A DNA stretch of 64,000 nucleotides from Longimicrobiales bacterium (GTDB lineage Bacteria; Gemmatimonadota; Gemmatimonadetes; Longimicrobiales; Gaopeijiaceae). The notes beneath the pieces are model-generated. The model worked only from the letters and a program-made list of their open reading frames with translations, searched no databases and was not told the DNA's origin. Positions 43,853 through 62,964 of the stretch are shown piece by piece; the first letter of the stretch is position 1; the number at the start of each line of letters is the position of its first letter. The DNA is taken from positions 608,001 to 672,000 of the forward strand of contig CBDCNQ010000002.1 in the NCBI GenBank assembly GCA_965219445.1, given 5' to 3'. The translations under genes and the position numbers were made by a program.

Positions 43853-45169
43853 TTATCCGCCGCCGCCGTCCTCCATGAGGAGGCTCGCCCTCTCGGCGAC
43901 CCGCTCGTCGAAGTCCTCCTGATCCAGAGCGACGATCTGCAGATGTATGTGCGCCATCTCGTCGCCGGTACGCCGGCCATGGACCACCCACTGGTCCGGA
44001 TCGGGATTATACGGGTGGCCGGCGGTATTGTCGTAGTATGAGGTCAGAACAAGGACCGTGCCCTTAGGTAGCAACGGCTGCACGTGGTCGTCGTAGATGT
44101 ATGTGAGACTCCAGCTGTGCAGCCAATTGTACTTGGTCAGGATCTCCTTGCGACCGTCCGGATAGATCGCCTCCAGAGACTGTCCGGTGCCCCGAAGATG
44201 CTGATGCCCCCGTATGCTGAAAACCCAAGACGGCTCTTGCAGAACGTGATAAGCCTGCGTAATCCCTGTCGAGTGGGGCGGAATCAGCATCGTCTGCTGG
44301 CCTTCTCTATCAATCTCCTTATACGAGCTGAAAGTCCTTGTCGCGCGACGGAGCTTATACTTCGGCTCAAAATCCATCGGGTAGAACCACAGGGCGACTT
44401 CGGCGTAAGCGTCTTCGACTCCTTCGCCCCTCGGGAAGTAATGGAGGTTGAAAGATATCGTCTGTTCCGGCTCGACCAGAAGCCCGGTGTCTTCGGGGTA
44501 GAGGTCGAAGGGCGTACCCGGCCCACCAAACCTCGAAATGCTGGTGTTGCCATGGTGCGTGACGTGACGGCTGTGGAGGCTGGGCCTGCTCTCGGTGGCC
44601 ATGATCCAGCGCGGCTCATCGAGCCCCTCTAACACTATCTCGGGCTCGAACCACTGATCCAACCCGCTGGCTTCCACGTCGAACCCAGGCGAGCGGTACA
44701 CCAAATCTGGCGGGCGCCCGAGTTCGTCCTCCAGTAGCCATGAGACTCCATCCGGCCACATCCGTGGCGGCGGCAGGTCCGCCGGATCCCCCTCAGGCGC
44801 CCCGGCATCCGCCCAGGCCCCGATGATTGCGATCTCCTCGTCGGTCAGCGAGAGGTCGTTCTGGTATTCCTGAATCCCAATCGTCCGGTCGACATGCCAC
44901 GGCGGCATTGTGCGCGTCTCCGTCTGGTACTTCATCATCGGCGCCCACGGACGCGCTTCATCATACGAGAGCAGCGACATAGCACCGATGCCGTCCGGTC
45001 GATGACACGCCTGACAGTTCTGTTGGAGAATCGGCATCACGTCGCGACTGAATGTGACGTCCGACACTTGGGCCGACACCTGACCAGGGATCAGTAGCAC
45101 CCCCATCAGCGCAAGCACTGTGCCGATGTAGGTGATCATTTGCCCAGTACCTTGGCTCTTCTTCTCCAT
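43853..45169 (-). CDS. Cytochrome c-fused PHM-like copper monooxygenase, copy A
   Basis: Signal peptide, CQACH...TMPPW, VTHHG, LHY, RGHQHLRG, DEM; start MEKKSQ after a GGAGG RBS. Confidence 0.8.
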   Translation of the reverse strand: MEKKSQGTGQMITYIGTVLALMGVLLIPGQVSAQVSDVTFSRDVMPILQQNCQACHRPDGIGAMSLLSYDEARPWAPMMKYQTETRTMPPWHVDRTIGIQEYQNDLSLTDEEIAIIGAWADAGAPEGDPADLPPPRMWPDGVSWLLEDELGRPPDLVYRSPGFDVEASGLDQWFEPEIVLEGLDEPRWIMATESRPSLHSRHVTHHGNTSISRFGGPGTPFDLYPEDTGLLVEPEQTISFNLHYFPRGEGVEDAYAEVALWFYPMDFEPKYKLRRATRTFSSYKEIDREGQQTMLIPPHSTGITQAYHVLQEPSWVFSIRGHQHLRGTGQSLEAIYPDGRKEILTKYNWLHSWSLTYIYDDHVQPLLPKGTVLVLTSYYDNTAGHPYNPDPDQWVVHGRRTGDEMAHIHLQIVALDQEDFDERVAERASLLMEDGGGG

Positions 45170-45230
45170 CCTAATGCCTCCATGGCTTTCGCCGGTTGTG
45201 TGCTGGTGCACCAGTGCGGGGCCAGTTCCC

Positions 45231-46547
45231 TTATCCGCCGCCGCCGTCCTCCATGAGGAGGCTCGCCCTCTCGGCGACCCGCTCGTCGAAGTCCTCCTGA
45301 TCCAGGGCGACGATCTGCAGATGTATGTGCGCCATCTCGTCGCCGGTACGCCGGCCATGGACCACCCACTGGTCCGGATCGGGATTATACGGGTGGCCGG
45401 CGGTATTGTCGTAGTATGAGGTCAGAACAAGGACCGTGCCCTTAGGTAGCAACGGCTGCACGTGGTCGTCGTAGATGTATGTGAGACTCCAGCTGTGCAG
45501 CCAATTGTACTTGGTCAGGATCTCCTTGCGACCATCCGGATAGATCGCCTCCAGAGACTGTCCGGTGCCCCGAAGATGCTGATGCCCCCGTATGCTGAAA
45601 ACCCAAGACGGCTCTTGCAGAACGTGATAAGCCTGCGTAATCCCTGTCGAGTGGGGCGGAATCAGCATCGTCTGCCGGCCTTCCCTAGCAGTCTCCTTAT
45701 ATGAGCTGAAAACCCTTGTCGCGGTACGGAGCTTATACTTCGGCTCAAAATCCATCGGGTAGAACCACAGGCCGACTTCGGCGTAAGCGTCTTCGACTCC
45801 TTCGCCCCTCGGGAAGTAATGGAGGTTGAAAGATATCGTCTGTTCCGGCTCGACCAGAAGCCCGGTGTCTTCGGGGTAGAGGTCGAAGGGCGTACCCGGC
45901 CCACCAAACTTCGAAATGCTGGAGTTGCCATGGTGCGTGACGTGACGGCTGTGGAGGCTGGGCCTGCTCTCGGTGGCCATGATCCAGCGCGGCTCATCGA
46001 GCCCCTCTAACACTACGTCGGGCTCGAACCACTGATCCAAACCGCTGGCTTCCACGTCGAACCCAGGTGAGCGGTACACCAAATCTGGCGGGCGCCCGAG
46101 TTCGTCCTCCAGTAGCCATGAGACTCCATCCGGCCACATCCGTGGCGGCGGCAGGTCCGCCGGATCCCCCTCAGGCGCCCCGGCATCCGCCCAGGCCCCG
46201 ATGATTGCGATCTCCTCGTCGGTCAGCGAGAGGTCGTTCTGGTATTCCTGAATCCCAATCGTCCGGTCGACATGCCACGGCGGCATTGTGCGCGTCTCCG
46301 TCTGGTACTTCATCATCGGCGCCCACGGACGCGCTTCATCATACGAGAGCAGCGACATAGCACCGATGCCGTCCGGTCGATGACACGCCTGACAGTTCTG
46401 TTGGAGAATCGGCATCACGTCGCGACTGAATGTGACGTCCGACACTTGGGCCGACACCTGACCAGGGATCAGTAGCACCCCCATCAGCGCAAGCACTGTG
46501 CCGATGTAGGTGATCATTTGCCCAGTACCTTGGCTCTTCTTCTCCAT
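45231..46547 (-). CDS. Cytochrome c-fused PHM-like copper monooxygenase, copy B
   Basis: Same motifs as copy A, with a few substitutions. Confidence 0.8.
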   Translation of the reverse strand: MEKKSQGTGQMITYIGTVLALMGVLLIPGQVSAQVSDVTFSRDVMPILQQNCQACHRPDGIGAMSLLSYDEARPWAPMMKYQTETRTMPPWHVDRTIGIQEYQNDLSLTDEEIAIIGAWADAGAPEGDPADLPPPRMWPDGVSWLLEDELGRPPDLVYRSPGFDVEASGLDQWFEPDVVLEGLDEPRWIMATESRPSLHSRHVTHHGNSSISKFGGPGTPFDLYPEDTGLLVEPEQTISFNLHYFPRGEGVEDAYAEVGLWFYPMDFEPKYKLRTATRVFSSYKETAREGRQTMLIPPHSTGITQAYHVLQEPSWVFSIRGHQHLRGTGQSLEAIYPDGRKEILTKYNWLHSWSLTYIYDDHVQPLLPKGTVLVLTSYYDNTAGHPYNPDPDQWVVHGRRTGDEMAHIHLQIVALDQEDFDERVAERASLLMEDGGGG

Positions 46548-46629
46548 CCTAATGCCTCCGTGGCTTTCGCCGGTTGTGGCGGATGCTTCTGCTACTTCAT
46601 GGCCGCTCTTCACTAGGTCCCCCCCTCGC

Positions 46630-47580
46630 CTATGGCGTGACGGTGACCCGTATGTAGGCAGTGGTCCAACAGCAATGTTGGTTCACCGCACCAAAGCTTT
46701 CTACCGCCCAGATGCGCAGTACGTAATCACCGGGCTCGCTGAACGTCGCCGTCGTCGAAACTTCGCCAGCCCCTCCCTCGAGAATGGTTTCCGCCTCGCT
46801 GAAATTCACCTGACCAGGCCCTTGATGATGATACCACCGCAGGATGCTGCTGGTTCGAGCCTGCATTTGCTCCCCGGCAAATGAGCCAACCACCATCGTT
46901 GCCGAAGCAGGTTGCGGGTCCACCCACACGCTCAACGGTAACACATCGCCCGCCGCTACCGTTAGCGGACCATACGTGACGCCGGAGCGGCCCCGGCCCG
47001 CCGGGCCCTCTGGGCCGCCGAATCTGAGCTCCGCGGCAACGGGTGAGATTGTGTAGGCCTCCATATTGTCCATGCGGTAGGCTTCATAGAGTGCACGCCC
47101 CGGCACGGAGTACGTCCGACCGTCCTGGATCAGGGTCCAGCGGACATCGCCCCTGTAATCTCCGGGCACGTCTACTGTGAAGGCACTCAGGTATCTGCGG
47201 TTACAACACTGAGACGCTGGCACGAAATGCGTCGGCTGATTGCCGTCGAACTCGCTCGGCTCGATGAAATTGTTTGGCCCGAGCGGGATATCCACCGCCT
47301 CCAGCGAGTTCAGGTTGAAGTAGGAGAAGCTGAGCCTGGTCATGTCGCTCATGTCATCGAAATTCGGGATCCAACCCTCGAAAATCGGAATTACAGGCTG
47401 GCCACTTTCCCTCACAGGCGCGGTGAGCAATGGAAAATCAAGGTCCTGTCGGAGGCCCCCTCGGCTCTGATAAAGGCCAAGCTCTGCTTCTGGCTCTGGT
47501 ACTTGCGCCGCCAAGCCTACCCAGCCGCCCATCACCCAAACACTTGCAACCCCCAGGGCAACGTAGTGCGTCCATCTCAT
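46630..47580 (-). CDS. Secreted hypothetical protein with two vicinal CC motifs and Ig/PKD-like C-terminus, copy 1
   Basis: Signal peptide, GQPVIPIFEGW, YFNLN, IPLGPNNFIEP, QPTHF, SQCCN, ATFSEPGDYVLR, HCCWT. Confidence 0.8.
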   Translation of the reverse strand: MRWTHYVALGVASVWVMGGWVGLAAQVPEPEAELGLYQSRGGLRQDLDFPLLTAPVRESGQPVIPIFEGWIPNFDDMSDMTRLSFSYFNLNSLEAVDIPLGPNNFIEPSEFDGNQPTHFVPASQCCNRRYLSAFTVDVPGDYRGDVRWTLIQDGRTYSVPGRALYEAYRMDNMEAYTISPVAAELRFGGPEGPAGRGRSGVTYGPLTVAAGDVLPLSVWVDPQPASATMVVGSFAGEQMQARTSSILRWYHHQGPGQVNFSEAETILEGGAGEVSTTATFSEPGDYVLRIWAVESFGAVNQHCCWTTAYIRVTVTP

Positions 47581-47712
47581 CGCGTACTCCTCCCTCCTCC
47601 GTCGTCTACGACGGCTATGCACCAACAACTGGCGTTCAACAAACTCGTCAGAATGTAGGCGCTTTACGCGTTCCGCGACAGAGCACTACATGATTGTGGG
47701 TGCGCCAGTCCC

Positions 47713-49029
47713 TTATCCGCCGCCGCCGTCCTCCATGAGGAGGCTCGCCCTCTCGGCGACCCGCTCGTCGAAGTCCTCCTGATCCAGAGCGACGATCTGC
47801 AGATGTATGTGCGCCATCTCGTCGCCGGTACGCCGGCCATGGACCACCCACTGGTCCGGATCGGGATTATACGGGTGGCCGGCGGTATTGTCGTAGTATG
47901 AGGTCAGAACAAGGACCGTGCCCTTAGGTAGCAACGGCTGCACGTGGTCGTCGTAGATGTATGTGAGACTCCAGCTGTGCAGCCAATTGTACTTGGTCAG
48001 GATCTCCTTGCGACCATCCGGATAGATCGCCTCCAGAGACTGTCCGGTGCCCCGAAGATGCTGATGCCCCCGTATGCTGAAAACCCAAGACGGCTCTTGC
48101 AGAACGTGATAAGCCTGCGTAATCCCTGTCGAGTGGGGCGGAATCAGCATCGTCTGCTGGCCTTCCCTAGCAGTCTCCTTATATGAGCTGAAAGTCCTTG
48201 TCGCGCCACGGAGCTTATACTTCGGCTCAAAATCCATCGGGTAGAACCACAGGCCGACTTCGGCGTAAGCGTCTTCGACTCCTTCGCCCCTCGGGAAGTA
48301 ATGGAGGTTGAAAGATATCGTCTGTTCCGGCTCGACCAGAAGCCCGGTGTCTTCGGGGTAGAGGTCGAAGGGCGTACCCGGCCCACCAAACCTCGAAATG
48401 CTGGTGTTGCCATGGTGCGTGACGTGACGGCTGTGGAGGCTGGGCCTGCTCTCGGTGGCCATGATCCAGCGCGGCTCATCGAGCCCCTCTAACACTATCT
48501 CGGGCTCGAACCACTGATCCAACCCGCTGGGTTCCACGTCGAACCCAGGCGAGCGGTACACCAAATCTGGCGGGCGCCCGAGTTCGTCCTCCAGTAGCCA
48601 TGAGACTCCATCCGGCCACATCCGTGGCGGCGGCAGGTCCGCCGGATCCCCCTCAGGCGCCCCGGCATCCGCCCAGGCCCCGATGATTGCGATCTCCTCG
48701 TCGGTCAGCGAGAGGTCGTTCTGGTATTCCTGAATCCCAATCGTCCGGTCGACATGCCACGGCGGCATTGTGCGCGTCTCCGTCTGGTACTTCATCATCG
48801 GCGCCCACGGACGCGCTTCATCATACGAGAGCAGCGACATAGCACCGATGCCGTCCGGTCGATGACACGCCTGACAGTTCTGTTGGAGAATCGGCATCAC
48901 GTCGCGACTGAATGTGACGTCCGACACTTGGGCCGACACCTGACCAGGGATCAGTAGCACCCCCATCAGCGCAAGCACTGTGCCGATGTAGGTGATCATT
49001 TGCCCAGTACCTTGGCTCTTCTTCTCCAT
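47713..49029 (-). CDS. Cytochrome c-fused PHM-like copper monooxygenase, copy C
   Basis: Same motifs as copy A; a mosaic of A and B variants. Confidence 0.8.
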   Translation of the reverse strand: MEKKSQGTGQMITYIGTVLALMGVLLIPGQVSAQVSDVTFSRDVMPILQQNCQACHRPDGIGAMSLLSYDEARPWAPMMKYQTETRTMPPWHVDRTIGIQEYQNDLSLTDEEIAIIGAWADAGAPEGDPADLPPPRMWPDGVSWLLEDELGRPPDLVYRSPGFDVEPSGLDQWFEPEIVLEGLDEPRWIMATESRPSLHSRHVTHHGNTSISRFGGPGTPFDLYPEDTGLLVEPEQTISFNLHYFPRGEGVEDAYAEVGLWFYPMDFEPKYKLRGATRTFSSYKETAREGQQTMLIPPHSTGITQAYHVLQEPSWVFSIRGHQHLRGTGQSLEAIYPDGRKEILTKYNWLHSWSLTYIYDDHVQPLLPKGTVLVLTSYYDNTAGHPYNPDPDQWVVHGRRTGDEMAHIHLQIVALDQEDFDERVAERASLLMEDGGGG

Positions 49030-49111
49030 CCTAATGCCTCCGTGGCTTTCGCCGGTTGTGGCGGATGCTTCTGCTACTTCATGGCCGCTCTTCACTAGGT
49101 CCCCCCCTCGC

Positions 49112-50062
49112 CTATGGCGTGACGGTGACCCGTATGTAGGCAGTGGTCCAACAGCAATGTTGGTTCACCGCACCAAAGCTTTCTACCGCCCAGATGCGCA
49201 GTACGTAATCACCGGGCTCGCTGAACGTCGCCGTCGTCGAAACTTCGCCAGCCCCTCCCTCGAGAATGGTTTCCGCCTCGCTGAAATTCACCTGACCAGG
49301 CCCTTGATGATGATACCACCGCAGGATGCTGCTGGTTCGAGCCTGCATTTGCTCCCCGGCAAATGAGCCAACCACCATCGTTGCCGAAGCAGGTTGCGGG
49401 TCCACCCACACGCTCAACGGTAACACATCGCCCGCCGCTACCGTTAGCGGACCATACGTGACGCCGGAGCGGCCCCGGCCCGCCGGGCCCTCTGGGCCGC
49501 CGAATCTGAGCTCCGCGGCAACGGGTGAGATTGTGTAGGCCTCCATATTGTCCATGCGGTAGGCTTCATAGAGTGCACGCCCCGGCACGGAGTACGTCCG
49601 ACCGTCCTGGATCAGGGTCCAGCGGACATCGCCCCTGTAATCTCCGGGCACGTCTACTGTGAAGGCACTCAGGTATCTGCGGTTACAACACTGAGACGCT
49701 GGCACGAAATGCGTCGGCTGATTGCCGTCGAACTCGCTCGGCTCGATGAAATTGTTTGGCCCGAGCGGGATATCCACCGCCTCCAGCGAGTTCAGGTTGA
49801 AGTAGGAGAAGCTGAGCCTGGTCATGTCGCTCATGTCATCGAAATTCGGGATCCAACCCTCGAAAATCGGAATTACAGGCTGGCCACTTTCCCTCACAGG
49901 CGCGGTGAGCAATGGAAAATCAAGGTCCTGTCGGAGGCCCCCTCGGCTCTGATAAAGGCCAAGCTCTGCTTCTGGCTCTGGTACTTGCGCCGCCAAGCCT
50001 ACCCAGCCGCCCATCACCCAAACACTTGCAACCCCCAGGGCAACGTAGTGCGTCCATCTCAT
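49112..50062 (-). CDS. Secreted hypothetical CC-motif protein, copy 2
   Basis: Translation identical to 46630-47580. Confidence 0.8.
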   Translation of the reverse strand: MRWTHYVALGVASVWVMGGWVGLAAQVPEPEAELGLYQSRGGLRQDLDFPLLTAPVRESGQPVIPIFEGWIPNFDDMSDMTRLSFSYFNLNSLEAVDIPLGPNNFIEPSEFDGNQPTHFVPASQCCNRRYLSAFTVDVPGDYRGDVRWTLIQDGRTYSVPGRALYEAYRMDNMEAYTISPVAAELRFGGPEGPAGRGRSGVTYGPLTVAAGDVLPLSVWVDPQPASATMVVGSFAGEQMQARTSSILRWYHHQGPGQVNFSEAETILEGGAGEVSTTATFSEPGDYVLRIWAVESFGAVNQHCCWTTAYIRVTVTP

Positions 50063-50308
50063 CGCGTACTCCTCCCTCCTCCGTCGTCTACGACGGCTAT
50101 GCACCAACAACTGGCGTTCAACTCCGACCGCTTAACCGCATAAACCATCATAATGGAGGAGTTTCACGCGTTCCGCAACAGCTCGGGGAGGACTCGGCAA
50201 TCGGCGAACATCTTCCGCCCCAGAGTCCTTTCGGGATGAGCTGATGCAGCCGCGGATCGTAGCCAAGGCGAAGGCCCGGCCACCATACCCGGATCAACCC
50301 GGGTGAGA

Positions 50309-50791
50309 TCAGCGGTTGCTCCCTCCCGAAGCGGACGGCCACAAGGGCATCTCGCTCATCGCGCTCGAGGTCGCATCCAGGGGGACTTCGCCGGCGGGAA
50401 GTCCGTTCAACTGGAACAGATAGGCGATGACGTCCGCGTAGGTCTGTCGAGGCAGCCCTCCCGGATTATCGTCCGGCATGTTGAACGAGACGTACTCGAA
50501 GATGTCGGCAACTGCCCGGTCACCCCAACGTCGCTGGAACGATGATCCGGTGAACTCCGCCTCCACGTGGCACCACACACAGTTTTCTCGGAAGAGCCCT
50601 TGACCACGGTTAGCCTGAGAGGTGGTGTAGAACGCCCCATCCGCCGAAGATTCCTCGACCGCCGGAGCCGCGTCGGCGGGCGACGGCTCTGCAGTGGGTA
50701 CGCCGCTGTCCGCGGTCGTTCCCCCGGGAGTGGAGGCGCATCCGGAGAGCGCCGCGACCAGAACACAACAGTTGAGAAAGAGCTGTTTCAT
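50309..50791 (-). CDS. Monoheme cytochrome c lipoprotein
   Basis: Lipobox LSGC, QANRG..LF...CVWCH, NMPDDNPG.L, AYL..LNG.PAG. Confidence 0.88.
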   Translation of the reverse strand: MKQLFLNCCVLVAALSGCASTPGGTTADSGVPTAEPSPADAAPAVEESSADGAFYTTSQANRGQGLFRENCVWCHVEAEFTGSSFQRRWGDRAVADIFEYVSFNMPDDNPGGLPRQTYADVIAYLFQLNGLPAGEVPLDATSSAMSEMPLWPSASGGSNR

Positions 50792-50949: not shown

Positions 50950-52032
50950 ATGATCGCGAACCGCTGGATCTTGGGAATATCTGTCGCAGCCGGGATGGTG
51001 ATCTGTGCTCCATTGGACGCACAGATCAAGGGGGATCAGGATATCACCGGACCCTACGAGGTGGTGGAGGATTGGCTCAAGCCACTGCCCTGGCACCAAG
51101 AAGGGTTGACCTTTGGCCTGATTACAGCGGTTTACCCCGATACTCCGGACAGGATCTTCCTGCTGCAGGGAGGTGACTTGCCGGACCCTCGCCCTCCCCG
51201 GGGTCCGGGACCGCAGTCCAACTCTAACCACATTCCCGCCCATTTCGTGCTCGTCTTGAATGGTGACGGTGAGCTTATCGAGTCCTGGACGCAGTGGGAT
51301 CACCTCTTCGTGAGACCGCACAAGGTTCTCATAAGCCCTTACGATCCCGAGCGGCACGTCTGGATCGTGGACGACTGGGCCAGCCAGATCTTCAAGTTCA
51401 CCAACGATGGATCGGAACTGGTCATGACATTGGGGGAGAGGGAAATGACGGGGGACGACCAGAACCATTTCGCGCGACCGACCGACATGGCCTTCCTACC
51501 GGATGGTACGTTTTTCGTTAGCGACGGCTACGTGAACACGCGCGTGGTGAAGTTCAACAAGGATGGCGAGTATTTGATGCAGTGGGGGAGCAGCGGAACC
51601 GGACCGGGCCAGTTCAATCTTGTCCACTCGGTAAAGGTTGACTCGGATCGCCGCGTGTATGTCGCCGATCGCCGCAATGGTCGCATTCAGATTTTCGATG
51701 AGAATGGGAAGTTCCTCGACATGTGGGACGGGATGGCCCAGCCGTCTCACATGGTGGTCGCTCAGGATCAAACTGTTTGGATGAGTGACCCAACGCTCAA
51801 CCGGTTGGTACAGTTCAACTTGAATGGCCTATTCCTTACTTCCTGGGGCGCGGCAGGGAGTTTTCCGGGCGCATTCAACAATCCTCACCACTTCGACGTG
51901 GACCAGGACGGCAACCTCTACGTAGCGGATTACGCCAACTTCAGGGTGCAAAAATTCGTACCGAGGCCGAACGCCGATCGGCGCCGCTTGATCCAGCCTG
52001 CCTTCGCGTCGATCAACGCGATGGAGGACTGA
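50950..52032 (+). CDS. Peptidyl-alpha-hydroxyglycine alpha-amidating lyase (PAL)-like NHL propeller
   Basis: RPH, RPTDMA, SDGYVNTRVVKF, GQFNLVHS, VADRRNGRIQ, NPHH; signal peptide. Confidence 0.85.
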   Translation: MIANRWILGISVAAGMVICAPLDAQIKGDQDITGPYEVVEDWLKPLPWHQEGLTFGLITAVYPDTPDRIFLLQGGDLPDPRPPRGPGPQSNSNHIPAHFVLVLNGDGELIESWTQWDHLFVRPHKVLISPYDPERHVWIVDDWASQIFKFTNDGSELVMTLGEREMTGDDQNHFARPTDMAFLPDGTFFVSDGYVNTRVVKFNKDGEYLMQWGSSGTGPGQFNLVHSVKVDSDRRVYVADRRNGRIQIFDENGKFLDMWDGMAQPSHMVVAQDQTVWMSDPTLNRLVQFNLNGLFLTSWGAAGSFPGAFNNPHHFDVDQDGNLYVADYANFRVQKFVPRPNADRRRLIQPAFASINAMED

Positions 52033-53516: not shown

Positions 53517-53683
53517 TCCTTTCGTAGGATCGATCCTCGACGGACCTTCGGGCAGCTTAGCTGCTCATCGGGGTGCCTAGCGGATGCCATGCCCCTATGA
53601 TGCCTATCCCTGTCGTGGATCTCGCTGGAATCGAGGTTGAAATGAGCAATCGTATGGCGGTGGTTGGTCGAGGCCATGAAGTG

Positions 53684-55297
53684 ATGTCGCCTTACTCCGC
53701 TCTACTAAGAACAGCGCTAGCCGTCCTCTCGGCTGTGTCATGGGCGGTCGTAATTCCCCTAGGCGCGCAGGCTCAGGATGCCCAGGTAACAGGGTGGATT
53801 CCGTTCACGCTCGAGGACGCTACGGTCGAATCGATCAACGCCGCGTTCGATGCGGGCGCGCTTACCTCCGAGAAGCTCGTCGCGCTATATCTCGCACGTA
53901 TCGGCGCATACGAGAACCGGGGTCCAACAATCAACGCCTTCATAAACATTCATCCCGATCCTCTATCGGTGGCGCGCGCGTTGGACCTGGAGCGGCAAAC
54001 GCTGGGCGCCCGCAGTCCCCTGCACGGCATACCGGTCGTCCTCAAAGACAATTTCAACACCTCGGATCTTCCCACGACTGGCGCGTCGCTCGCCTTGAAG
54101 GATTTGTTTCCGGCGCGGGAGGCCTTCGTAGTGGAACGCCTTCGTGCGGCTGGCGCCATCATACTTGGCAAGACCAATTTGACCGAGATGGTCTCCTCCG
54201 TGCTGGATTCCTCGCTCGGCGGGCGTACCTCCAACCCGTGGGATTTGACGCGCACGCCTGGAGAGTCCAGCAGCGGCACGGGTGCGGCGCTCGCTGCCGA
54301 TTTCACATTGCTGGGGACGGGCAGCGACAATGGTCAATCAGTGCGATCACCGGCTTCCGCTGGGGGCGTGGTTGGCATGAAGCCGACGATTGGCTTGGTC
54401 AGCTGCGCCGGCGTGCTGCCCAGTTCGCTCTCCCACAACGCGTGCGGACCAATGGCGCGGTCGGTTGCCGATCTGGCCTACCTGCTCGACGTGATGGCGG
54501 GCTTTGACCCGCGCGATTTCAGGACGCGCCTGTCGCTCGGACAGATTCCCGAGACCTACACGAGCTTTCTCGATTCGAATGGGTTACGGGGAGCGCGCTT
54601 CGGCATCGTGGTCGAACTGCTCGGCGACCGACCGGAAAATGCGGAGGTCAATCGCGTCTTCAACGCGGCGACTGTTCGCTTGGAGAGTCTCGGTGCAACG
54701 GTCTTTCCAATCCGGATCCCCGACATGAACGACTACAGGGGCATCGGGACCGACACGTATGAAACTTGGGATCTGTTGAATGCGTGGTTCGCCGAGCTCG
54801 GCCCGACCTCGCCGTTTCACGACATGGAGGACTTTTTGGAGCGGGGCACGTATGACCCGGGAATTGTGCCGCGGCTTCGACAGCGACAGGCTCACGCGGG
54901 GCCGGAGCATTTCGAGGAGTATCAACGGCGGCTGCTCAAGATGCATGAGTTTCGGAAGTTGTTGGTGGGTGTGATGGATCAGTACTCCCTGGATGCTCTC
55001 GTCTATCCCTTGCAACAGATCTTGGTCGCGCCGCATGGCGAGAGTAATGCCGGACGCAACGGCTTTCTCGCATCAATGGGAATGTTGCCTGCCATCGATG
55101 TGCCCGCTGGGTATTCAGCGCCGCTTCCGAACGCACCCGACGGGATTCCGATTGGCATGGATTTCCTGGGAAGGCCCTTCGACGAGGGGCGCCTCATCAG
55201 GCTGGCCTTCGCGTGGGAGATGAACGGTTTAGAGCGGCGTTGGCCGTCCAATACGCCGCCACTCCCCGGGGAAACGATCGATGTGGCGCCGGATTGA
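53684..55297 (+). CDS. Amidase-signature family protein, secreted
   Basis: LHGIPVVLKDN, LGKTN, GESSSG, GSDNGQSVRSPA, KPT.GLV, GPMARSV. Start approximate. Confidence 0.92.
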   Translation: MSPYSALLRTALAVLSAVSWAVVIPLGAQAQDAQVTGWIPFTLEDATVESINAAFDAGALTSEKLVALYLARIGAYENRGPTINAFINIHPDPLSVARALDLERQTLGARSPLHGIPVVLKDNFNTSDLPTTGASLALKDLFPAREAFVVERLRAAGAIILGKTNLTEMVSSVLDSSLGGRTSNPWDLTRTPGESSSGTGAALAADFTLLGTGSDNGQSVRSPASAGGVVGMKPTIGLVSCAGVLPSSLSHNACGPMARSVADLAYLLDVMAGFDPRDFRTRLSLGQIPETYTSFLDSNGLRGARFGIVVELLGDRPENAEVNRVFNAATVRLESLGATVFPIRIPDMNDYRGIGTDTYETWDLLNAWFAELGPTSPFHDMEDFLERGTYDPGIVPRLRQRQAHAGPEHFEEYQRRLLKMHEFRKLLVGVMDQYSLDALVYPLQQILVAPHGESNAGRNGFLASMGMLPAIDVPAGYSAPLPNAPDGIPIGMDFLGRPFDEGRLIRLAFAWEMNGLERRWPSNTPPLPGETIDVAPD

Positions 55298-55340
55298 TGA
55301 GGCTGGAGATTCCCATTCCTCGCGCGATGGAGGCTGTACC

Positions 55341-56414
55341 ATGTCATATGCAATTCGAGCCGGATTCGCGCTGACGGTCATCATGGTCATCACGGCGGTC
55401 GCGGTCCCTGCCGCCGCCCAATCCAACCCCTATCACCGAGTCGAGGCGCCGGTGCCCCCGGCACACATGAATGGCGGAGAATGGGGGGAGTTGATCGGCG
55501 TCGATGTCGATCCCCAGGGCAATGTCTGGGTGCTGCATCGATGTTTCAAGGCCGTGCTTGGACATCCTCGGGTGATTCCCGGGCACTCCGACGGCCAGAG
55601 CGCCAACTGCTTAGGACCGTGGGCCGCTCACCCGCCGATCATGAAGTTTTCTCCTTCGGGGGAGTTCCTGACGAGCTTTGGAGAAGGGGTGTTCGGTAGG
55701 CCTCACGGCCTCGCAGTAGACCACGAAGGAAACGTATGGGCAGTGGACGACAATTCGTACACGTCGGAGCCCGGAGTGGGCCATGTGATCTACAAATATA
55801 GTCCAAACGGTGAGCTGCTACTGACCCTTGGCAAGGTGGGTATTGCGGGGGATGGTGTCGACACCTTCGATCGTCCGACCGATGTTGCTGTCGCTCCGAG
55901 TGGAGAGATATTCGTGACCGACGGCCACGGCCAGAACAATCGCGTGGTGAGGTTTTCGAGCAAAGGTGATTTTCTCGGGTCATGGGGAGGCACGGGATCG
56001 GGGCCTGGCAACTTCAACCAGCCCCACACGATCGCCATCGATTCTCAGGGGCGGGTGTTCGTCGGTGACCGCGGAAATAATCGAGTCCAGATCTTCGACG
56101 GGGATGGGAATTTCATCGACGAGTGGAGGCAGTTTGGCCGCCCGAGCGGGATCTCCATCAATAGGGCGACCGACATGCTTTACGTAACCGACTCAACTTC
56201 GAACTCCAGAAGTGCCCCAAGTGTGAGGAGGGGCATTTATGTCGGGAGCGCCAGAACCGGCGAGGTCATGTATTTCATTCCAGACCCCGACCTGGAGCAG
56301 GCGGATTGGACCCGGATCTCAGGAGCGTCGGGTATTGCGTCAGACGCCACGGATACCGTCGTGTACGCGGCGGACGTGGCTCCCCACACACTGCGAAAGT
56401 ATGTGAGGCCGTGA
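55341..56414 (+). CDS. PAL-like NHL repeat protein
   Basis: RPHGL, FDRPTDVA, TDGH, QPHTIA, GDRGNNRVQ; signal peptide. Confidence 0.85.
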   Translation: MSYAIRAGFALTVIMVITAVAVPAAAQSNPYHRVEAPVPPAHMNGGEWGELIGVDVDPQGNVWVLHRCFKAVLGHPRVIPGHSDGQSANCLGPWAAHPPIMKFSPSGEFLTSFGEGVFGRPHGLAVDHEGNVWAVDDNSYTSEPGVGHVIYKYSPNGELLLTLGKVGIAGDGVDTFDRPTDVAVAPSGEIFVTDGHGQNNRVVRFSSKGDFLGSWGGTGSGPGNFNQPHTIAIDSQGRVFVGDRGNNRVQIFDGDGNFIDEWRQFGRPSGISINRATDMLYVTDSTSNSRSAPSVRRGIYVGSARTGEVMYFIPDPDLEQADWTRISGASGIASDATDTVVYAADVAPHTLRKYVRP

Positions 56415-56445
56415 ACGGCCCCAGCAGAAAGAAAGGGAGCGCTCC

Positions 56446-57513
56446 ATGTCGACTGTAACTCGAGCTAGCTTCGCGATCGCGGTCATCATGACCGTACCGG
56501 CGGTCGTAGTCCCTGCCGCCGCCCAATTCAACCCCTATCACCGAGTCGAGGCACCGGAGCCTCCGCCCCACATGAATGCCGGCGAATGGGGGGAGTTGAT
56601 CGGGGTCGATCTGGATCCCCAAGGCAACGTCTGGGTGCTGCATCGATGCTTTAAGGCGGTGCTTGGAGATCCTCGGGTGACTCCGGGCCACTCCGACGGC
56701 ATAAACGCCAATTGTGTGGGGCCGTGGGCCTCTCACCCACCGATCATGAAATTTGCTCCGTCAGGGGAGTTCCTGACCAGCTTCGGTGAGGGATTGCTCG
56801 GCCGGCCTCACGGCTTCGCTGTGGACCACGAAGGGAACGTCTGGGTCACCGATGTCATGGTTGTTCCTAACCAAATGGGCGCCGTCGTCATCAAGATCAG
56901 TCCGGACGGTGAAGTCCTGATGACGCTGGGCACCCCCGGTGTCACGGGGCAAGGTACCGACACGTTCAATAGGCCAAGCGATGTCGCCGTGGCCCCAAAC
57001 GGCGAGATCTTCGTCACGGATGGGGAAGGGCCCAACAACCGTGTGGTAAAGTTCTCGAGAGAAGGTCGCTTCATAATGGAGTGGGGAGCGACGGGATCGG
57101 AGCCTGGCAACTTCGACACGCCCCATACCATTGCCATCGATTCTCAGGGGAGAGTGTTCGTCGGCGACCGTGGTAACAATCGAGTCCAGATATTCGACGG
57201 AGACGGAAATTTCGTCGACGAGTGGAAGCAGTTTGGCCGTCCGAGCGGGATCTCCATCAATAGGGCGACCGACATGCTCTACGTAACCGACTCACATTCG
57301 AACTCCAGAGTTAACCCAGGTGTGAGGAGGGGCATCTCCATCGGGAGCGCGAGAACAGGGGAGGTCATGTATTTCGTTCCGGACCCCGACCTCGAGCATG
57401 CCGAATCGACCCGAATCTCCGGAGCATCAGGCGTCGCGTCAGACCCCGCAGACAGGGTCGTGTATGCGGCGGACGTGGCTCCGCACCAGTTGCGAAAATA
57501 TGTCCGGCCTTAG
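56446..57513 (+). CDS. PAL-like NHL repeat protein (tandem paralog)
   Basis: Closely similar to 55341-56414; RPHGF, TDGE, TPHTIA, GDRGNNRVQ. Confidence 0.85.
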   Translation: MSTVTRASFAIAVIMTVPAVVVPAAAQFNPYHRVEAPEPPPHMNAGEWGELIGVDLDPQGNVWVLHRCFKAVLGDPRVTPGHSDGINANCVGPWASHPPIMKFAPSGEFLTSFGEGLLGRPHGFAVDHEGNVWVTDVMVVPNQMGAVVIKISPDGEVLMTLGTPGVTGQGTDTFNRPSDVAVAPNGEIFVTDGEGPNNRVVKFSREGRFIMEWGATGSEPGNFDTPHTIAIDSQGRVFVGDRGNNRVQIFDGDGNFVDEWKQFGRPSGISINRATDMLYVTDSHSNSRVNPGVRRGISIGSARTGEVMYFVPDPDLEHAESTRISGASGVASDPADRVVYAADVAPHQLRKYVRP

Positions 57514-57757
57514 CGCCCCTTTGAACTTCCTCGTCCAGAACTTCTTAGAGGAGCTGAGGCAGGTGGTGCCGGATTGAGGACACATTCGAGTGAGGGCTCT
57601 GACGATTATTGAACCCGGTCTACAAGACGAGAACGGGATATGGATTGACAAGCAGCATCCTGCGAACTTACCGTGATCCCGTGAAGCGAGGCGCAGCGCG
57701 TATCGCCTAGCCCGTTCCAAGAGCCCACGATCACTGGCCAAGGGGGGAAGAAGAGTC

Positions 57758-59182
57758 ATGAACCGGAACATGCGGATTCGACGGCCGCTCGTCGACAACG
57801 TGGCGGTCAAGCTTCTGTTCGTGCTGGTCGGAGCTGGTCTTTTGACGCTCCATCCCGCGGCGCTTTCCGCGCAGCAGGCGCAAGACCAGGTGACCTACGC
57901 CAGGGACGTTGCTCCGATTATCCAGCAGAACTGCGTGACGTGTCACCGGCCAGGCTCCATCGGTGCTATGTCTCTCGAGACGTACGAGCAGGTCCGGAGT
58001 TGGGCGCCTCGCATCAAGGAACGCACCACGAAGCGCGAGATGCCCCCTTGGCCGATCGACATGACGGTCGGGGTCCAGGAGTTCAAGAACGATCGGTCTT
58101 TGAGTGAAGCGGAGATCGAGACCATCGCACGCTGGGTGGATGCGGGAGCGCCCATGGGAGATCCCGCGGAACTGCCACCTCTCATCGAGTGGCCGGATCA
58201 CTCGAACTCCTGGCGGTTCGCCGAGCATTTCAACCGGCCGCCGGATCTCGTGGTCCCCTCGCCACCCTACACGGTGCCGGCCGACGGGGCGGATCACTGG
58301 CCGAACCTGGTAACGCCGATACCGCTGACGGAGCAGCGGTGGATCGCAGCCGCCGAGTTCAAGCCGGAGAAGGTGGAGATCGAGGAGGTCTTCCATCACG
58401 CCAACCCCTCGGTGGGCAACCCGAACGTGCCGGGAGGGATGAACGGTTCGATAAGGCAGGTGCGGGGGATGGAAGGAATCATCTTCGCGGAAAACACCGG
58501 TGTGCCGATCGCTCCCGGAGATGTCGTCCGATGGGGAATGCACCTCTTCCCGATCGAGAGGACGGTAGAAGATGCTGTGCTCGAGCTCGGGCTCTGGCTC
58601 TACCCGCCGGGTCAACCTCCGGAGAAGGCGGTACCCAACGCTCAGGGACTTTCTTGTAGCCAGTGGGCCGGACATGGCTTCGACGCGGGCCGGTCAGGCG
58701 ACCTTGTCGGCGTGAGCGCCGACCCGCAGATTGGGCGGCAGGGCGACATACTCATTCCGCCGAACAGCCTGGCGACCTACCGCGGAGTCTACGTGCTGGA
58801 TCGGCCAGCCCGGCTTCAGAGCCTCCGGGCCCACATGCACCTGCGAGGCGTGTATCAGATCCTGGAGGCGATCTACCCGGATGGCCGGTGGGAAGTGATC
58901 AACAAGATGCACAACCATCACCGCTGGCAGACGGAGTTCCTCTACGAGGAAGATGCGATGCCGCTGTTTCCCAAGGGCACGGCCCTCATCTCGACCTGTG
59001 TCTACGACAACACGGAGGCCAACCCGTTGAATCCGGATCCTACCGTGTGGGTCACGAGAGGCTCGCGGACGGTCGATGAGATGGGCCATTTCCGGGCCCA
59101 GATGGTCTTCTATGACAGCGAAGAAGAGTTCCAGAAGGTGGTGGACGAAAGGCAGCGGCGGATCACCCAGGACCAGGAGTAG
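57758..59182 (+). CDS. Cytochrome c-fused PHM-like copper monooxygenase, divergent paralog D
   Basis: CVTCH...EMPPW, VFHHAN, MH, RAHMHLRG, DEMGH. Confidence 0.8.
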   Translation: MNRNMRIRRPLVDNVAVKLLFVLVGAGLLTLHPAALSAQQAQDQVTYARDVAPIIQQNCVTCHRPGSIGAMSLETYEQVRSWAPRIKERTTKREMPPWPIDMTVGVQEFKNDRSLSEAEIETIARWVDAGAPMGDPAELPPLIEWPDHSNSWRFAEHFNRPPDLVVPSPPYTVPADGADHWPNLVTPIPLTEQRWIAAAEFKPEKVEIEEVFHHANPSVGNPNVPGGMNGSIRQVRGMEGIIFAENTGVPIAPGDVVRWGMHLFPIERTVEDAVLELGLWLYPPGQPPEKAVPNAQGLSCSQWAGHGFDAGRSGDLVGVSADPQIGRQGDILIPPNSLATYRGVYVLDRPARLQSLRAHMHLRGVYQILEAIYPDGRWEVINKMHNHHRWQTEFLYEEDAMPLFPKGTALISTCVYDNTEANPLNPDPTVWVTRGSRTVDEMGHFRAQMVFYDSEEEFQKVVDERQRRITQDQE

Positions 59183-59322
59183 GAAGATCGGCGGATAGCG
59201 GATAGGTTGCTTTCGACCCCGACAAGGGGCTCCACATCGATCACGGCGAGACTCGGCCATCTGGACCCTCCAGATGGCCGAATCTCGTCCGAGGACAACC
59301 ATTGAAGAGCGAGGCCGAGGAC

Positions 59323-60189
59323 ATGTCCAAAGTTGCACTTTTGGTTGGCGGCTTCTTCTTGCTGCTCGCTGGATCCGTGCCCCTAGAGGCGCAGAATCCC
59401 CTCGCGGGTGCCGCCAGGACGGAGATGCTGCGGAACCTTCGCCCATCGGGTCAGCCGGTGGTTCCCATCTTCGAGGGTTGGTATTCCGAGCCAGACGGTT
59501 CTCACGGTCTCTGCTTCGGATACCACAACTTGAACCTTCAGGAAACGTTGGACATTCCTCTGGGACCGGACAACTTCATCGAGCCGGCCCGCTTCGACGG
59601 GGTCCAACCCACGCACTTCGATCCGGTGCCGATGAGCGGGGACCTGCGGTATTACTGCGTGTTCGCAGTGAACGTGCCGGCAGACTTTGGAAACCAGGAT
59701 GTCGTCTGGACCCTCAGGATCGATGACCAGGATTACTCGGTGCCCGGCCACACCACCGCTTTCGATTACCGAATTCAGGAGCCGGATCACCCTTCACTCA
59801 ACTCGGTAGCGCCGCTGGTTCGGTTCCTCGAGCCGGAGGGGCCGGAAGGGAGGGGGCGGGGCGGCGTCTGGGCCGGGCCCATGAGGACGGAGGTCGAGAA
59901 CCCTCTGTCGTTGAGGATCGAGGTGGCGGAACCCGAGACCACGAGCCAATATTCCGCCTTTGAGATGGTCACCGCTCGCTGGGCAATGCATCAGGGACCG
60001 GGAGAGGTGGTCTTTCAGCACATGGACGATGCAGCGTCCATGCCGCGAGGAACCGGGTTGACTACGACGGCGACGTTCAGCGAGCCTGGGAACTACATTC
60101 TGCGCGTGCAGGCCTTCGAAGGTAGGCGGGCTTGGCAGAACCATTGCTGCTGGACGAATGCCTACGTGGAGGTCACGGTCACCCCCTGA
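59323..60189 (+). CDS. Secreted hypothetical CC-motif protein, divergent paralog
   Basis: GQPVVPIFEGW, YHNLN, IPLGPDNFIEP, QPTHF, ATFSEPGNYILR, HCCWTN. Confidence 0.8.
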   Translation: MSKVALLVGGFFLLLAGSVPLEAQNPLAGAARTEMLRNLRPSGQPVVPIFEGWYSEPDGSHGLCFGYHNLNLQETLDIPLGPDNFIEPARFDGVQPTHFDPVPMSGDLRYYCVFAVNVPADFGNQDVVWTLRIDDQDYSVPGHTTAFDYRIQEPDHPSLNSVAPLVRFLEPEGPEGRGRGGVWAGPMRTEVENPLSLRIEVAEPETTSQYSAFEMVTARWAMHQGPGEVVFQHMDDAASMPRGTGLTTTATFSEPGNYILRVQAFEGRRAWQNHCCWTNAYVEVTVTP

Positions 60190-60377
60190 CCAAGGGCCTA
60201 ACGCCGACCCCCCTCGGTGACGATCCTGCGCTAATGGGGCGCTTCCTGGTCCGCCGCTCGGTATGAGCCCGAGTGGGAGCATGATTCCGGCTTTGGCTCT
60301 GTCGGCGAGCTCCTCCGGGTCTCCGGATAGGTAGGGAACACGAGACGGAGTGAAGGCGTTCTATGTTCCTGACTCCT

Positions 60378-60429
60378 GCCTTTCTTCGGAGGTGCCCAAT
60401 GAAGCCTTTCTTCGGAGGTGCCCCATGAA
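60378..60429 (+). repeat. 26-bp tandem duplication of RBS plus start codon
   Basis: GCCTTTCTTCGGAGGTGCCC(A/C)ATGAA occurs twice. Confidence 0.85.
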
Positions 60430-61342
60430 GCGTACCATTTTTCTCGCCTTTCTCTCCGTATTGTTCGTTGCTGGGTGCTCAACAGGAGACTCACCGGGGA
60501 GACAAGGGTCGCTTGTTATGTGCGGCGACCCTTCACCGATGAGCCGGATCGAAACGCCTGAGCTTCCGACTCCCATGCCGCCGACAGAGCTGTCCGAAAC
60601 AGACCGCGTCGGCTACCCCGAGGGGTACCGGGAGACCTTCGAGCAGTTCTACGTGTTCGATCGTATGGACGTTGGAAGGGTTGCCTTCGTCTGCGCAAAC
60701 GATGTTGCGGCCGGTATCGGGCCGGGAGAGCCCTTTCCGTACGGAAGCATCTTGGTCATCGAGGGCTGGCGACCCGTGAGGGACGAAGACGGCAACCTGG
60801 TCTCGGACTCGAGTGGTCATCTCATACGCTCGGAACTTACTGGTGTCTCACTGATGAGGAAGGAGCCGGGCTTCGGGGAAAGCTACGGAGACAAGCGTTC
60901 GGGGGAGTGGGAGTATGTCGGCTACCGGCCCGACGGAACCTATTCCACACCTCCAGAAGAGACCGCACGCTGTGCTTCCTGCCACGGGGCTGGTGCAAGG
61001 CAGGACAGGGACTTCGTATTTCGCACGAACGTCCACTTTCTGCCCGACCGGTATGCTCACTCGGATCCAGTGCCTGAGGCCGCAATCGGTATTTCCCGGA
61101 TGAGCTTCCAACCTCGCACTTATCAGGTACGGCCTGGCACCACGGTGCTTTGGCAGAACAGCATGATCGACGAGACCGCGCACGCGATAAGCGCTGGCGA
61201 CGGATCCTTCAATTCAGGGCTGCTGTCGCCCGGACAGACGTTCAGTCGCACTTTTGAAACGCCGGGTCGATACGAGTACATCTGCCCGCTTCATCCCGAA
61301 CAGATGCGTGGAACTATCGAAGTGACGAATGAAGCTGGTTGA
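60425..61342 (+). CDS. Cytochrome P460/c'-beta family lipoprotein fused to a cupredoxin domain
   Basis: Lipobox VAGC, PEGYR, FPYGSILVIE, MRK, GEWEY, CASCH, DFVF; then H...F.SG.L.PG..F...YICPLHPEQM. Confidence 0.8.
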   Translation: MKRTIFLAFLSVLFVAGCSTGDSPGRQGSLVMCGDPSPMSRIETPELPTPMPPTELSETDRVGYPEGYRETFEQFYVFDRMDVGRVAFVCANDVAAGIGPGEPFPYGSILVIEGWRPVRDEDGNLVSDSSGHLIRSELTGVSLMRKEPGFGESYGDKRSGEWEYVGYRPDGTYSTPPEETARCASCHGAGARQDRDFVFRTNVHFLPDRYAHSDPVPEAAIGISRMSFQPRTYQVRPGTTVLWQNSMIDETAHAISAGDGSFNSGLLSPGQTFSRTFETPGRYEYICPLHPEQMRGTIEVTNEAG

Positions 61343-61419
61343 CCGCGGCCCTGCGTGTATATGCGAAACGGTGTGTGAAGTTCTCCCCAAACGAAGTATT
61401 ACTGCCGAGGGGGCTCAAG

Positions 61420-62964
61420 ATGAACGTGAAGAAAGCGAATAGCGATACTGACAACCGCCACCTGACGCGGCGGGACTTACTGCAGAATGCGAGCTTGGCC
61501 ATCGCGGCTGCGGCCATGGCACCCAAGTCGGCAGCCGCGGCAGCCTCTCGCGCGATGGGGAAGAAGGCGCGACCTCGGGTGCCCATGGCCGCGCAGATGC
61601 AGGACGTCAGCCCCATAATGGCTCGGCTCAGCGCCTATATGAGCGAGGCAAGGACCCGCCCGTTGCCTGGGCCGGTGCTGGAGAGGGCGGAGCATCATAC
61701 CCTAGACACCATAGCCGCAATGATTTCGGGTTCCGAACTCCCTCCCGGCCGTGCGGCCATCCAATTCGCGAGTGGCTACGGTGGAGCGCAAGGGGCCACC
61801 GTGTCGGCCTCGACCGTTCTGGCTGGTCCCATGGAGGCTGCGCTAGTCAACGGGGTGATGGCCCATGCGGACGAGACCGACGACTCTTGGCCGTCGGGAT
61901 GGCATCCCGGCTGTGCGGTCGTGCCTGCCGCGCTGGCCGCCGGGGAACGATTCGGTATCAGCGGGACGCACTTCCTGCGCGCGGTGGCGCTCGGCTACGA
62001 CGTTGGCTCAAGGGTGTTAATAACGTTGCGGTCCGCAGGTCCACAAACGTACAAGAGCACCCATAGCATTGCCGGAGTCTGGGGCGCTGCGGCAGCCGCT
62101 GGCTGCGCGGCCAGCCTATCGCCACAGCAGATGCGCTGGCTATGCGATTACACGGCCCAACAGGCTTCGGGTATCCGCGCCTGGTCGAGAGATGTCGACC
62201 ACATGGAGAAGGGATTCGCCCTTGGTGGCATGTCGGCGCGCAGCGGGGTCACCTCCGCACTGCTGGTTCAGGCCGGCTGGACTGGCATCGACGACATCTT
62301 TTCGGGAGAGAATAACTACATCCTCGCCAATGCACGGGAAGCCGATCCGGAAAACCTACCGACGGAACTGCTAATTGATGAGCTGGGCGAACGCTACGAG
62401 ATAGCGCGCACGAACATCAAGAAATGGAGTGTAGGATCGCCCCTTCAGGCACCGCTCGATGCGATGGAGATCATTCTGGGGCGGCACCGGTTACAAGCCA
62501 ACGACGTGACGGAAGTCATCTATCGCGGGAATCCGGAGGCGTTCACCTATTGGGCTCAGATGCCCGACATCAATCTGCGCTACATGATCGCCGTAATGCT
62601 GATCGACGGAACCCTCACCTTCGAGTCGTCGCATGACGGATCGCGCATGGAGGACCCGGACATCCTTCGTCAGTACGCGAAGGTGAGATTTGTCCCCGGC
62701 GTCGGCCCAGCCCAGGGCGGTGAGCAGCCGATCATCCAGGTCATTCTCGCGGATGGCACGCGCTTCGCCGAGGATTTCATCGCTGAAAACACTCTCGGCA
62801 GGATCGACAATCCGATGACCCGCGACCAGGTGGCGGCGAAGGCCCAAGGCTTGATGGCTCCCGTGCTTGGTACAGCGGCCTCCAGAAGCCTGATCGATGC
62901 CATGTTCGGGCTGGAAAACGTGGACGACATCCGATCGCTTCGACCCTTGCTGCAAAGGGCGTGA
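61420..62964 (+). CDS. MmgE/PrpD family protein with Tat signal
   Basis: LTRRDLL, AALVNGVMAHADETDD, HPG, ALGYDV, G..A..GV..A, IKKW, G..DNPM. Confidence 0.88.
   Translation: MNVKKANSDTDNRHLTRRDLLQNASLAIAAAAMAPKSAAAAASRAMGKKARPRVPMAAQMQDVSPIMARLSAYMSEARTRPLPGPVLERAEHHTLDTIAAMISGSELPPGRAAIQFASGYGGAQGATVSASTVLAGPMEAALVNGVMAHADETDDSWPSGWHPGCAVVPAALAAGERFGISGTHFLRAVALGYDVGSRVLITLRSAGPQTYKSTHSIAGVWGAAAAAGCAASLSPQQMRWLCDYTAQQASGIRAWSRDVDHMEKGFALGGMSARSGVTSALLVQAGWTGIDDIFSGENNYILANAREADPENLPTELLIDELGERYEIARTNIKKWSVGSPLQAPLDAMEIILGRHRLQANDVTEVIYRGNPEAFTYWAQMPDINLRYMIAVMLIDGTLTFESSHDGSRMEDPDILRQYAKVRFVPGVGPAQGGEQPIIQVILADGTRFAEDFIAENTLGRIDNPMTRDQVAAKAQGLMAPVLGTAASRSLIDAMFGLENVDDIRSLRPLLQRA

What the first reader, a model, noticed from the sequence alone, without database searches (positions are those of the whole stretch)
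43853..62964. Candidate bacterial PAM-like system: heme c-fused PHM-like Cu monooxygenases clustered with PAL-like lyases
Seen: four secreted proteins with an N-terminal CxxCH/MPPW heme domain followed by HH, H, HxH and DEM. Three secreted NHL propellers lie among them. Known: animal PAM is PHM (CuH His107/108/172; CuM His242/244/Met314; Arg240 binds the substrate Gly carboxylate) plus PAL (three Zn His, catalytic Tyr and Arg). All four proteins have Arg two residues before the HxH (RGHQH, RAHMH), as in PHM RVHTH. The 50950 protein keeps PH, DGY, HS, ADR and PH. Inference: a periplasmic two-step Gly alpha-hydroxylation and cleavage system. The fused heme, fed by the neighbouring cytochrome c, cupredoxin or PQQ dehydrogenase, would replace ascorbate. 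I know of no biochemical characterisation of such a cluster, but I could not search the literature.
Basis: partly seen in the sequence, partly recalled or inferred. Interest (0 to 1): 0.92.

Follow-up and report, generated by a model that had tools for sequence, protein, structure and literature searches.

The report
Heme-fused bacterial copper hydroxylase cassettes
This bacterial DNA encodes exported relatives of the animal copper enzymes that make amidated hormones and noradrenaline, each carrying its own cytochrome and paired with an unknown partner protein, next to a likely second-step lyase and a peptide amidase, so it may be a bacterial route for oxidatively cutting carbon-nitrogen bonds.

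The parts
43853..45169 (-). Heme c-PHM/DBH-fold protein, copy A (438 aa): R213, R275, T279, Q291
   Evidence: 44% identical to D
45231..46547 (-). Copy B (438 aa): K213, T275, V279, R291, the type that recurs once in each of two other triplets
46630..47580 (-). Partner protein (316 aa, signal peptide, two Ig-like domains by homology to the modelled paralog, C-terminal CCW); no Pfam hit
47713..49029 (-). Copy C (438 aa): R213, G275, T279, Q291
49112..50062 (-). Second partner copy, identical in DNA to the one at 46630
   Evidence: 0 differences in 999 nt
43818..50122 (.). Tandem amplification: 45221-47640 matches 47704-50122 (99.4%); 43818-45200 matches 47678-49060 (99.3%)
   Evidence: contigs of runs X1 and X4 end at 50122, and the repeat pieces in X1 carry about twice the depth of the flanking contigs
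50309..50791 (-). Monoheme cytochrome c lipoprotein, upstream of and co-directional with the partner-C-partner-B-A run; candidate electron donor
   Evidence: PF13442, E 1.8e-7; role inferred
50950..52032 (+). PAL-complete NHL propeller (H124, Y194, H226, R241, H313)
52137..53516 (+). Exported amidohydrolase; best NCBIfam hit Xaa-Pro dipeptidase, below the cut-off
53573..55297 (+). Amidase-signature enzyme; best PDB hit peptide amidase (5ac3, 1m21; E 2e-69, residues 21-503 of the 519 queried)
55341..56414 (+). NHL propeller lacking the PAL Tyr and third His (HHHRS)
56446..57513 (+). NHL propeller lacking the PAL Tyr and third His (HEHRS)
57758..59182 (+). Heme c-PHM/DBH-fold protein D (474 aa), the modelled copy
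59323..60189 (+). Partner of D (288 aa, CCW); modelled as two beta-sandwich domains
60425..61342 (+). Cytochrome P460-like plus cupredoxin fusion lipoprotein; the only copy found in the genome
61339..62964 (+). MmgE/PrpD-family protein; not shown to belong to the system (found in 0 of 80 related loci)
34325..43795 (+). Upstream TonB receptor, SusD, CMD, PQQ-like dehydrogenase and DUF5916 genes; orthologs stay near the 50950 and A orthologs in another genus

Best explanation
Each unit is a two-gene periplasmic cassette: a heme c-fused, two-copper PHM/DBH-type hydroxylase plus a dedicated partner with a vicinal Cys-Cys. Shown: fold, ligand motifs, pairing and gene context. Inferred steps: (1) Electrons from periplasmic donors (PQQ-like dehydrogenases, small cytochrome c, cupredoxin) enter through the His/Met heme and reduce CuH and CuM, replacing ascorbate (about 75%). 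(2) The partner binds the enzyme as a small subunit or as a copper or redox helper (about 65%; binding untested). (3) In the Arg-bearing subfamily to which A-D belong, CuM/O2 hydroxylates the carbon next to an amide-type nitrogen of a carboxylate substrate (N-acyl or peptidyl amino acid, Gly or Gly-like). The PAL-complete 50950 cleaves the carbinolamide to an amide plus an oxo-acid, and the peptide-amidase-like enzyme releases ammonia. The purpose would be catabolic, opening bonds that peptidases cannot cut, with one lyase serving several hydroxylase paralogs in trans. (4) Paralogs diversify their substrate range by tandem duplication. Gene conversion homogenises the copies except at residues 213, 275, 279 and 291.
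Against: Most cassettes have no PAL-complete neighbour: 9 of 80 loci, 3 of 20 regions around close paralogs, and no propeller between the cassettes of the tandem arrays fetched. In this genome the enrichment (5 of 14 clusters) is only marginal against other island genes (18 of 122, p 0.06). The clade statistics rest on three genera and are not independent. The Asn316 and Tyr318 positions differ from PHM, and Arg is absent in most of the family. Copper geometry, heme-to-copper distance, partner binding and any activity are untested. No PqqE over the cut-off was found, so the PQQ-like donors may lack their cofactor. Enrichment of amino-acid changes in the two variable segments held for two other close pairs (p 0.0005) but not when two more pairs were added (p 0.12).
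Confidence: 0.45

Rival explanations
1. The cassettes are self-reducing copper hydroxylases for non-amide small molecules (DBH/TBH-like amines, or other C-H or heteroatom oxidation). The PAL-like and amidase genes are independent residents of the same mobile catabolic islands, acting on other carbinolamides (ureidoglycolate-type chemistry; recalled, not from a call).
For: DBH ties with PHM structurally. Gln replaces Arg at -2 in 60 of 80 loci. PAL-complete genes are absent near most cassettes, and 16 PAL-complete genes are spread through this genome, 10 of them more than 7 kb from any cassette. Amidase, DUF5916 and PQQ-like genes are also enriched near cassettes.
Against: The 50950 clade is near cassettes about four times as often as other propellers in four of the same genomes, and beside different Arg-type paralogs. 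Arg at -2 is kept in 112 of 120 relatives of D, which suggests an anionic substrate.
Confidence: 0.33
2. The proteins do not activate O2 on an organic substrate. They are heme-copper redox proteins (oxidase, NO or N-oxide handling, copper storage or electron relay) that reuse the PHM fold.
For: About 15% identity to PHM and DBH. There is an extra, nearly invariant His two residues after the CuM Met. The model fits closed PHM and DBH chain A slightly better than open forms, though within about 1-2 Z. A P460/cupredoxin fusion follows D.
Against: All six ligand positions are kept. There are 15-35 matches per well-assembled genome in this group, with variation focused at a few positions, which fits many substrates better than one inorganic reaction.
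Confidence: 0.12
3. A strict PAM equivalent that makes bioactive C-terminally amidated peptides from Gly-extended precursors, for example as signals or defence in a sponge host.
For: Arg at -2 and a PAL-complete neighbour. Relatives of the stretch occur in runs labelled sponge metagenome.
Against: The neighbours are uptake and hydrolytic genes, including an enzyme that would remove the amide. No precursor peptide gene was noticed, though none was searched for systematically. The Asn316 and Tyr318 equivalents differ.
Confidence: 0.1

Closest known systems
Peptidylglycine alpha-hydroxylating monooxygenase (PHM, rat; PDB 1PHM, 1OPM, 1SDW, 6ALA, 5WJA)
   Different: About 16% identity; fused N-terminal cytochrome c; obligate-looking partner gene; His and Arg/His/Trp where PHM has Asn316 and Tyr318 (by offset); no sequence-level hit to PHM in the PDB; bacterial, with about 20 paralogs per genome.
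Dopamine beta-hydroxylase (human, 4ZEL)
   Different: The accessory domain is a class I cytochrome c, not DOMON (DOMON recalled); no dimerisation domain; 14% identity.
Peptidyl-alpha-hydroxyglycine alpha-amidating lyase (PAL; rat 3FVZ; active Exiguobacterium PAL in PMC9155641)
   Same: 50950 keeps the five key residues. Rat PAL covers the propeller profile in one stretch (positions 57-337 of 344, E 4e-52) and is the top hit for the His-to-Tyr segment.
   Different: A separate gene, not fused to the hydroxylase. Whole-protein scores are higher for TRIM71-type NHL repeats. 55341 and 56446 lack the Tyr and one His. The Exiguobacterium sequence could not be seen.
Peptide amidase (PDB 5ac3, 1m21)
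   Same: Best PDB hit of 53573 over nearly the full length (E 2e-69); amidase-signature Lys and Ser motifs present.
   Different: General amidases score nearly as well in NCBIfam, all below their cut-offs; specificity untested.

Membership tests
Copper type II (PHM/DBH) monooxygenase superfamily | Two tandem beta-sandwich (PHM/PNGase F) domains | tested here: met
Copper type II (PHM/DBH) monooxygenase superfamily | CuH His-His...His and CuM His-x-His...Met present and conserved | tested here: met
   invariant in 120 of 120 aligned sequences
Copper type II (PHM/DBH) monooxygenase superfamily | Ligands form two copper sites across the cleft | not testable with these tools
   model coordinates and residue-level structural alignments were not returned
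Copper type II (PHM/DBH) monooxygenase superfamily | Pfam Cu2_monoox_C or Cu2_monooxygen over the cut-off | tested here: not met
   D scores 16.8 bits against a cut-off of 23 for PF03712; A-C have no hit; 13% of the members of two Atlas neighbour clusters carry PF03712
PHM (peptidylglycine hydroxylase proper) | Arg240 equivalent | tested here: met
   R320 in A-C, R357 in D; 112 of 120 relatives of D, but only 15 of 80 wider loci; mapped by offset from HxH
PHM (peptidylglycine hydroxylase proper) | Asn316 and Tyr318 peptide contacts (PMC12164859) | tested here: not met
   Met+2 is His; Met+4 is His (A-C) or Arg (D); mapped by offset from the CuM Met
PHM (peptidylglycine hydroxylase proper) | Hydroxylates C-terminal Gly with O2 and a reductant | not testable with these tools
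   needs an enzyme assay
PAL (gene 50950) | Three Zn His, catalytic Tyr654 and Arg706 | tested here: met
   HYHRH; Arg706 numbering recalled
PAL (genes 55341, 56446) | Three Zn His, catalytic Tyr654 and Arg706 | tested here: not met
   HHHRS and HEHRS
PAM-type two-enzyme system | Hydroxylase and lyase genetically coupled | tested here: inconclusive
   family-wide 9 of 80; 50950 clade 7 of 11 against 28 of 166, with kin not independent
Class I cytochrome c domain | CxxCH, distal Met, cytochrome fold, exported, maturation system present | tested here: met

The most novel reading that the evidence does not exclude
Bacteria have a complete, ascorbate-free counterpart of animal PAM chemistry used for catabolism. 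A heme-wired, two-subunit copper hydroxylase, a true PAL and a peptide amidase act in series to strip C-terminal Gly or Gly-like residues from blocked peptides and N-acyl compounds in the periplasm. The enzyme repertoire is tuned by tandem duplication and gene conversion that spares four specificity residues. This would place the PHM-PAL pairing in bacteria and supply a self-reducing recombinant model for the open question of how electrons reach CuM.
Probability: 0.3. Interest if true: 0.92.

Novelty: new variant of a known kind. Interest (0 to 1): 0.74.

Why it matters
PHM and DBH are studied as eukaryotic, ascorbate-driven enzymes. How electrons move between their two coppers (open or closed mechanism, and the role of ascorbate) is still debated (PMC12164859, passages and section 20). 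A bacterial version with a built-in optical redox reporter would make that directly testable. It could also replace the rat PHM that a published protein-ligation platform had to pair with a bacterial PAL (PMC9155641). The family is large (2093 hits among 8000 candidates scored) and is named only 'hypothetical' or 'cytochrome c' by the sources shown. This window is a good entry point: enzyme, partner, PAL-complete lyase and amidase lie together, and three natural near-identical variants point to the residues that probably set specificity.

Full report
1. What is there. The window is G000:C2:608001-672000 of a 4.56-Mb, 5-contig genome. A, B and C are a tandem amplification with a 2482-bp period. 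A and B differ at 16 codons (10 non-synonymous), A and C at 8, B and C at 11. Pfam sees only a weak cytochrome c domain and, in D, a sub-threshold Cu2_monoox_C.

3. The missed partner. The genome holds 21 heme-PHM-like hits and 15 full-length genes of an unannotated family of about 300 aa; all 15 lie within 150 bp of an enzyme gene. In 80 loci from GTDB genomes (Gemmatimonadota, Acidobacteriota, Proteobacteria; best 80 of 582 confirmed) the partner is adjacent and co-directional in 75 of 80, on either side. It is modelled as two beta-sandwiches (pLDDT 89.7) with only generic Ig/PKD matches. It ends in Cys-Cys-Trp (C252 invariant, C251 90% or more in 121 rows). The three partners in this genome that lack Cys-Cys belong to the three enzymes with N-M in place of E-M at the CuM Met, a hint of functional coupling. 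Binding could not be modelled.

4. The propellers. Rat PAL numbering read puts His585 and Tyr654 on H124 and Y194 of 50950; H226, R241 and H313 complete the set. Of 42 propellers in the genome, 16 have this HYHRH signature and 16 form another group (HHHRE); the window's other two are HHHRS and HEHRS. A PAL from Exiguobacterium converted hydroxylated peptides to amides together with rat PHM (PMC9155641; passages of the main text seen, supplement unreadable), so bacterial PAL activity is already in print.

5. Is PAL coupled to the hydroxylase? From the enzyme's side, weakly. A PAL-complete gene lies within the 8-kb flanks in 9 of 80 loci, and PQQ-like genes in 27 of 80. It is present in 3 of 20 regions around close paralogs, plus one cut by the region's edge. 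In this genome it is within 7 kb of 5 of 14 clusters (0.84 expected by uniform shuffling, p 0.002), but only marginally above other island genes (18 of 122, p 0.06). From the lyase's side, clearly. Relatives of 50950 at 75% identity or more occur in 8 of 260 genomes of the family, this one included. In the 7 other genomes, 7 of 11 loci are within 7 kb of a heme-PHM gene; two of the 11 are partial or broken, and one miss lies 4.5 kb from a contig end. This compares with 28 of 166 other propeller genes in four of these genomes (p about 0.001). Among metagenomic contigs, 4 of 7 close relatives (65% or more) have an enzyme gene in the flanks; one duplicates a genomic locus and two are short. None of 73 distant ones does, though only 27 of those had 8 kb of flank. 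The neighbours are six different paralog types in different orders, and all whose motif was read have Arg at -2. A recurring set is amidohydrolase, PAL, enzyme, partner and PQQ-like gene, and a second locus of this genome has it too. All 8 genomes with the 50950 clade carry the HHGSAR-type enzyme, found in 10 of 260. Caveats: three genera, 7 of the 10 in one genus, and only 6-7 candidates scored per genome.

6. Substrate clues. PHM binds the peptide through Arg240, Tyr318 and Asn316 (PMC12164859; passages and section 20 seen). By offset from the ligands, A-D keep the Arg but have His at 316 and His or Arg at 318. Arg is kept in 112 of 120 relatives of D, but the wider set has Gln in 60 of 80; another subfamily has Gly, Asn and Arg at the three places. 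So an anionic substrate is likely for this subfamily, and peptidyl-Gly is one option among several. The co-directional run from 50950 has gaps of 31-244 bp. It contains an amidohydrolase whose best NCBIfam hit is Xaa-Pro dipeptidase (below the cut-off) and an amidase whose best PDB hit is peptide amidase. A TonB receptor-SusD pair lies upstream. This reads as catabolism rather than hormone-like amidation (inference).

7. The triplication. In runs X1 and X4 contigs end at 50122, the repeat edge, and the repeat pieces in X1 carry about twice the depth of the flanks; X1 may be the source sample. The 90% cluster of A (15 of 43 members listed) holds two further sets of three distinct proteins that share a longest-contig length (4,374,951 and 139,775 bp). 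I take these as triplets on one contig each, without having seen the DNA. Copies are 97.5-99.5% identical within a set and 87-97% between sets, and 42 positions are fixed between the window set and the distant set. Yet positions 213, 275, 279 and 291 vary within all three sets, and one copy in each set has Lys213, Val or Ile279 and Arg291. For the distant set the overlap is 4 of 8 variable sites (p 2e-5 over all mature sites; p 0.02 among the 66 variable sites). This is the pattern expected from concerted evolution that spares specificity residues; parallel change after separate triplications is the alternative. Position 213 follows the HH strand, and 275-291 is the first strand of the CuM domain and its loop. 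That they line the substrate cleft is inferred from recalled PHM anatomy. In a separate 16-member subfamily, two columns of the same strand tie for the most changes among 391 columns (8 each, with one other column). The two segments were chosen from the A/B/C data; they were enriched in two other close pairs (16 non-synonymous and 2 synonymous against 42 and 56, p 0.0005) but not after adding two more pairs (p 0.12). Single-copy orthologs in another genus carry Val279. Tandem arrays of cassettes recur in congeners, which have 1-33 matches per genome.

8. Novelty. Database names are 'hypothetical' or 'cytochrome c'. Ten full-text searches showed no study of the family (apart from the two papers cited, only listings were seen). 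The scan itself has noted the family in 25 findings from at least 24 genomes. I had the partner before reading those notes. In the snippets I saw, and in two further look-ups that returned nothing, I found neither the clade-specific PAL link nor the triplet pattern.

9. Verdict. It works like PHM/DBH and belongs to the structural superfamily. It is not shown to be PHM, and it fails two of the three peptide-contact tests. It is a new variant of a known kind. A hydroxylase-lyase-amidase route is the best single guess (0.45), against an independent lyase (0.33), non-oxygenase redox roles (0.12) and strict peptide amidation (0.10).

Noticed in passing
G000 genome-wide; window 55341-57513: A second large propeller group (16 of 42 in the genome, 14 of 28 in the related loci) has His in place of the PAL Tyr and Glu in place of the third Zn His (HHHRE): probably a different metal-dependent lyase or hydrolase.
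   Followed up: partly
window 60425-61342: Lipoprotein fusing a cytochrome P460-like domain to a cupredoxin; the only copy found in the genome.
   Followed up: no
G000:C3:153347-158499 and C5:1390693-1393145: Three enzyme paralogs with N-M in place of E-M at CuM have partners without the Cys-Cys motif.
   Followed up: partly
G000:C4:276292-278031: Partner-less heme-PHM-like paralog fused to C-terminal TPR repeats.
   Followed up: partly
G000:C5:155003-156400 (L082): Partner-less subfamily, with named relatives among Pseudohongiellaceae and other Gammaproteobacteria, with Gly, Asn and Arg at the 240/316/318-equivalent places in about 116-118 of 120 relatives; the Arg may have moved position.
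   Followed up: partly
G000 genome-wide: 38 PQQ-like dehydrogenase genes, but no PqqE over the cut-off; the cofactor may be scavenged or different.
   Followed up: partly
L119 (G007:C7:1160500-1180499): Six heme-PHM-like genes in 17 kb; two pairs show many more non-synonymous than synonymous codon differences (58/27 and 83/25).
   Followed up: partly
window 1693-10486: Two IS110-family transposases and one Mutator-family transposase.
   Followed up: no
window 11591-12625: MauE-AhpC/TSA fusion.
   Followed up: no
window 41561-43795 and 63011-63985: DUF5916/CBM9 protein at the left edge of the cluster, and a protein with a similar-looking C-terminus (no Pfam hit) at the right edge; 28 DUF5916-like genes in the genome.
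   Followed up: no
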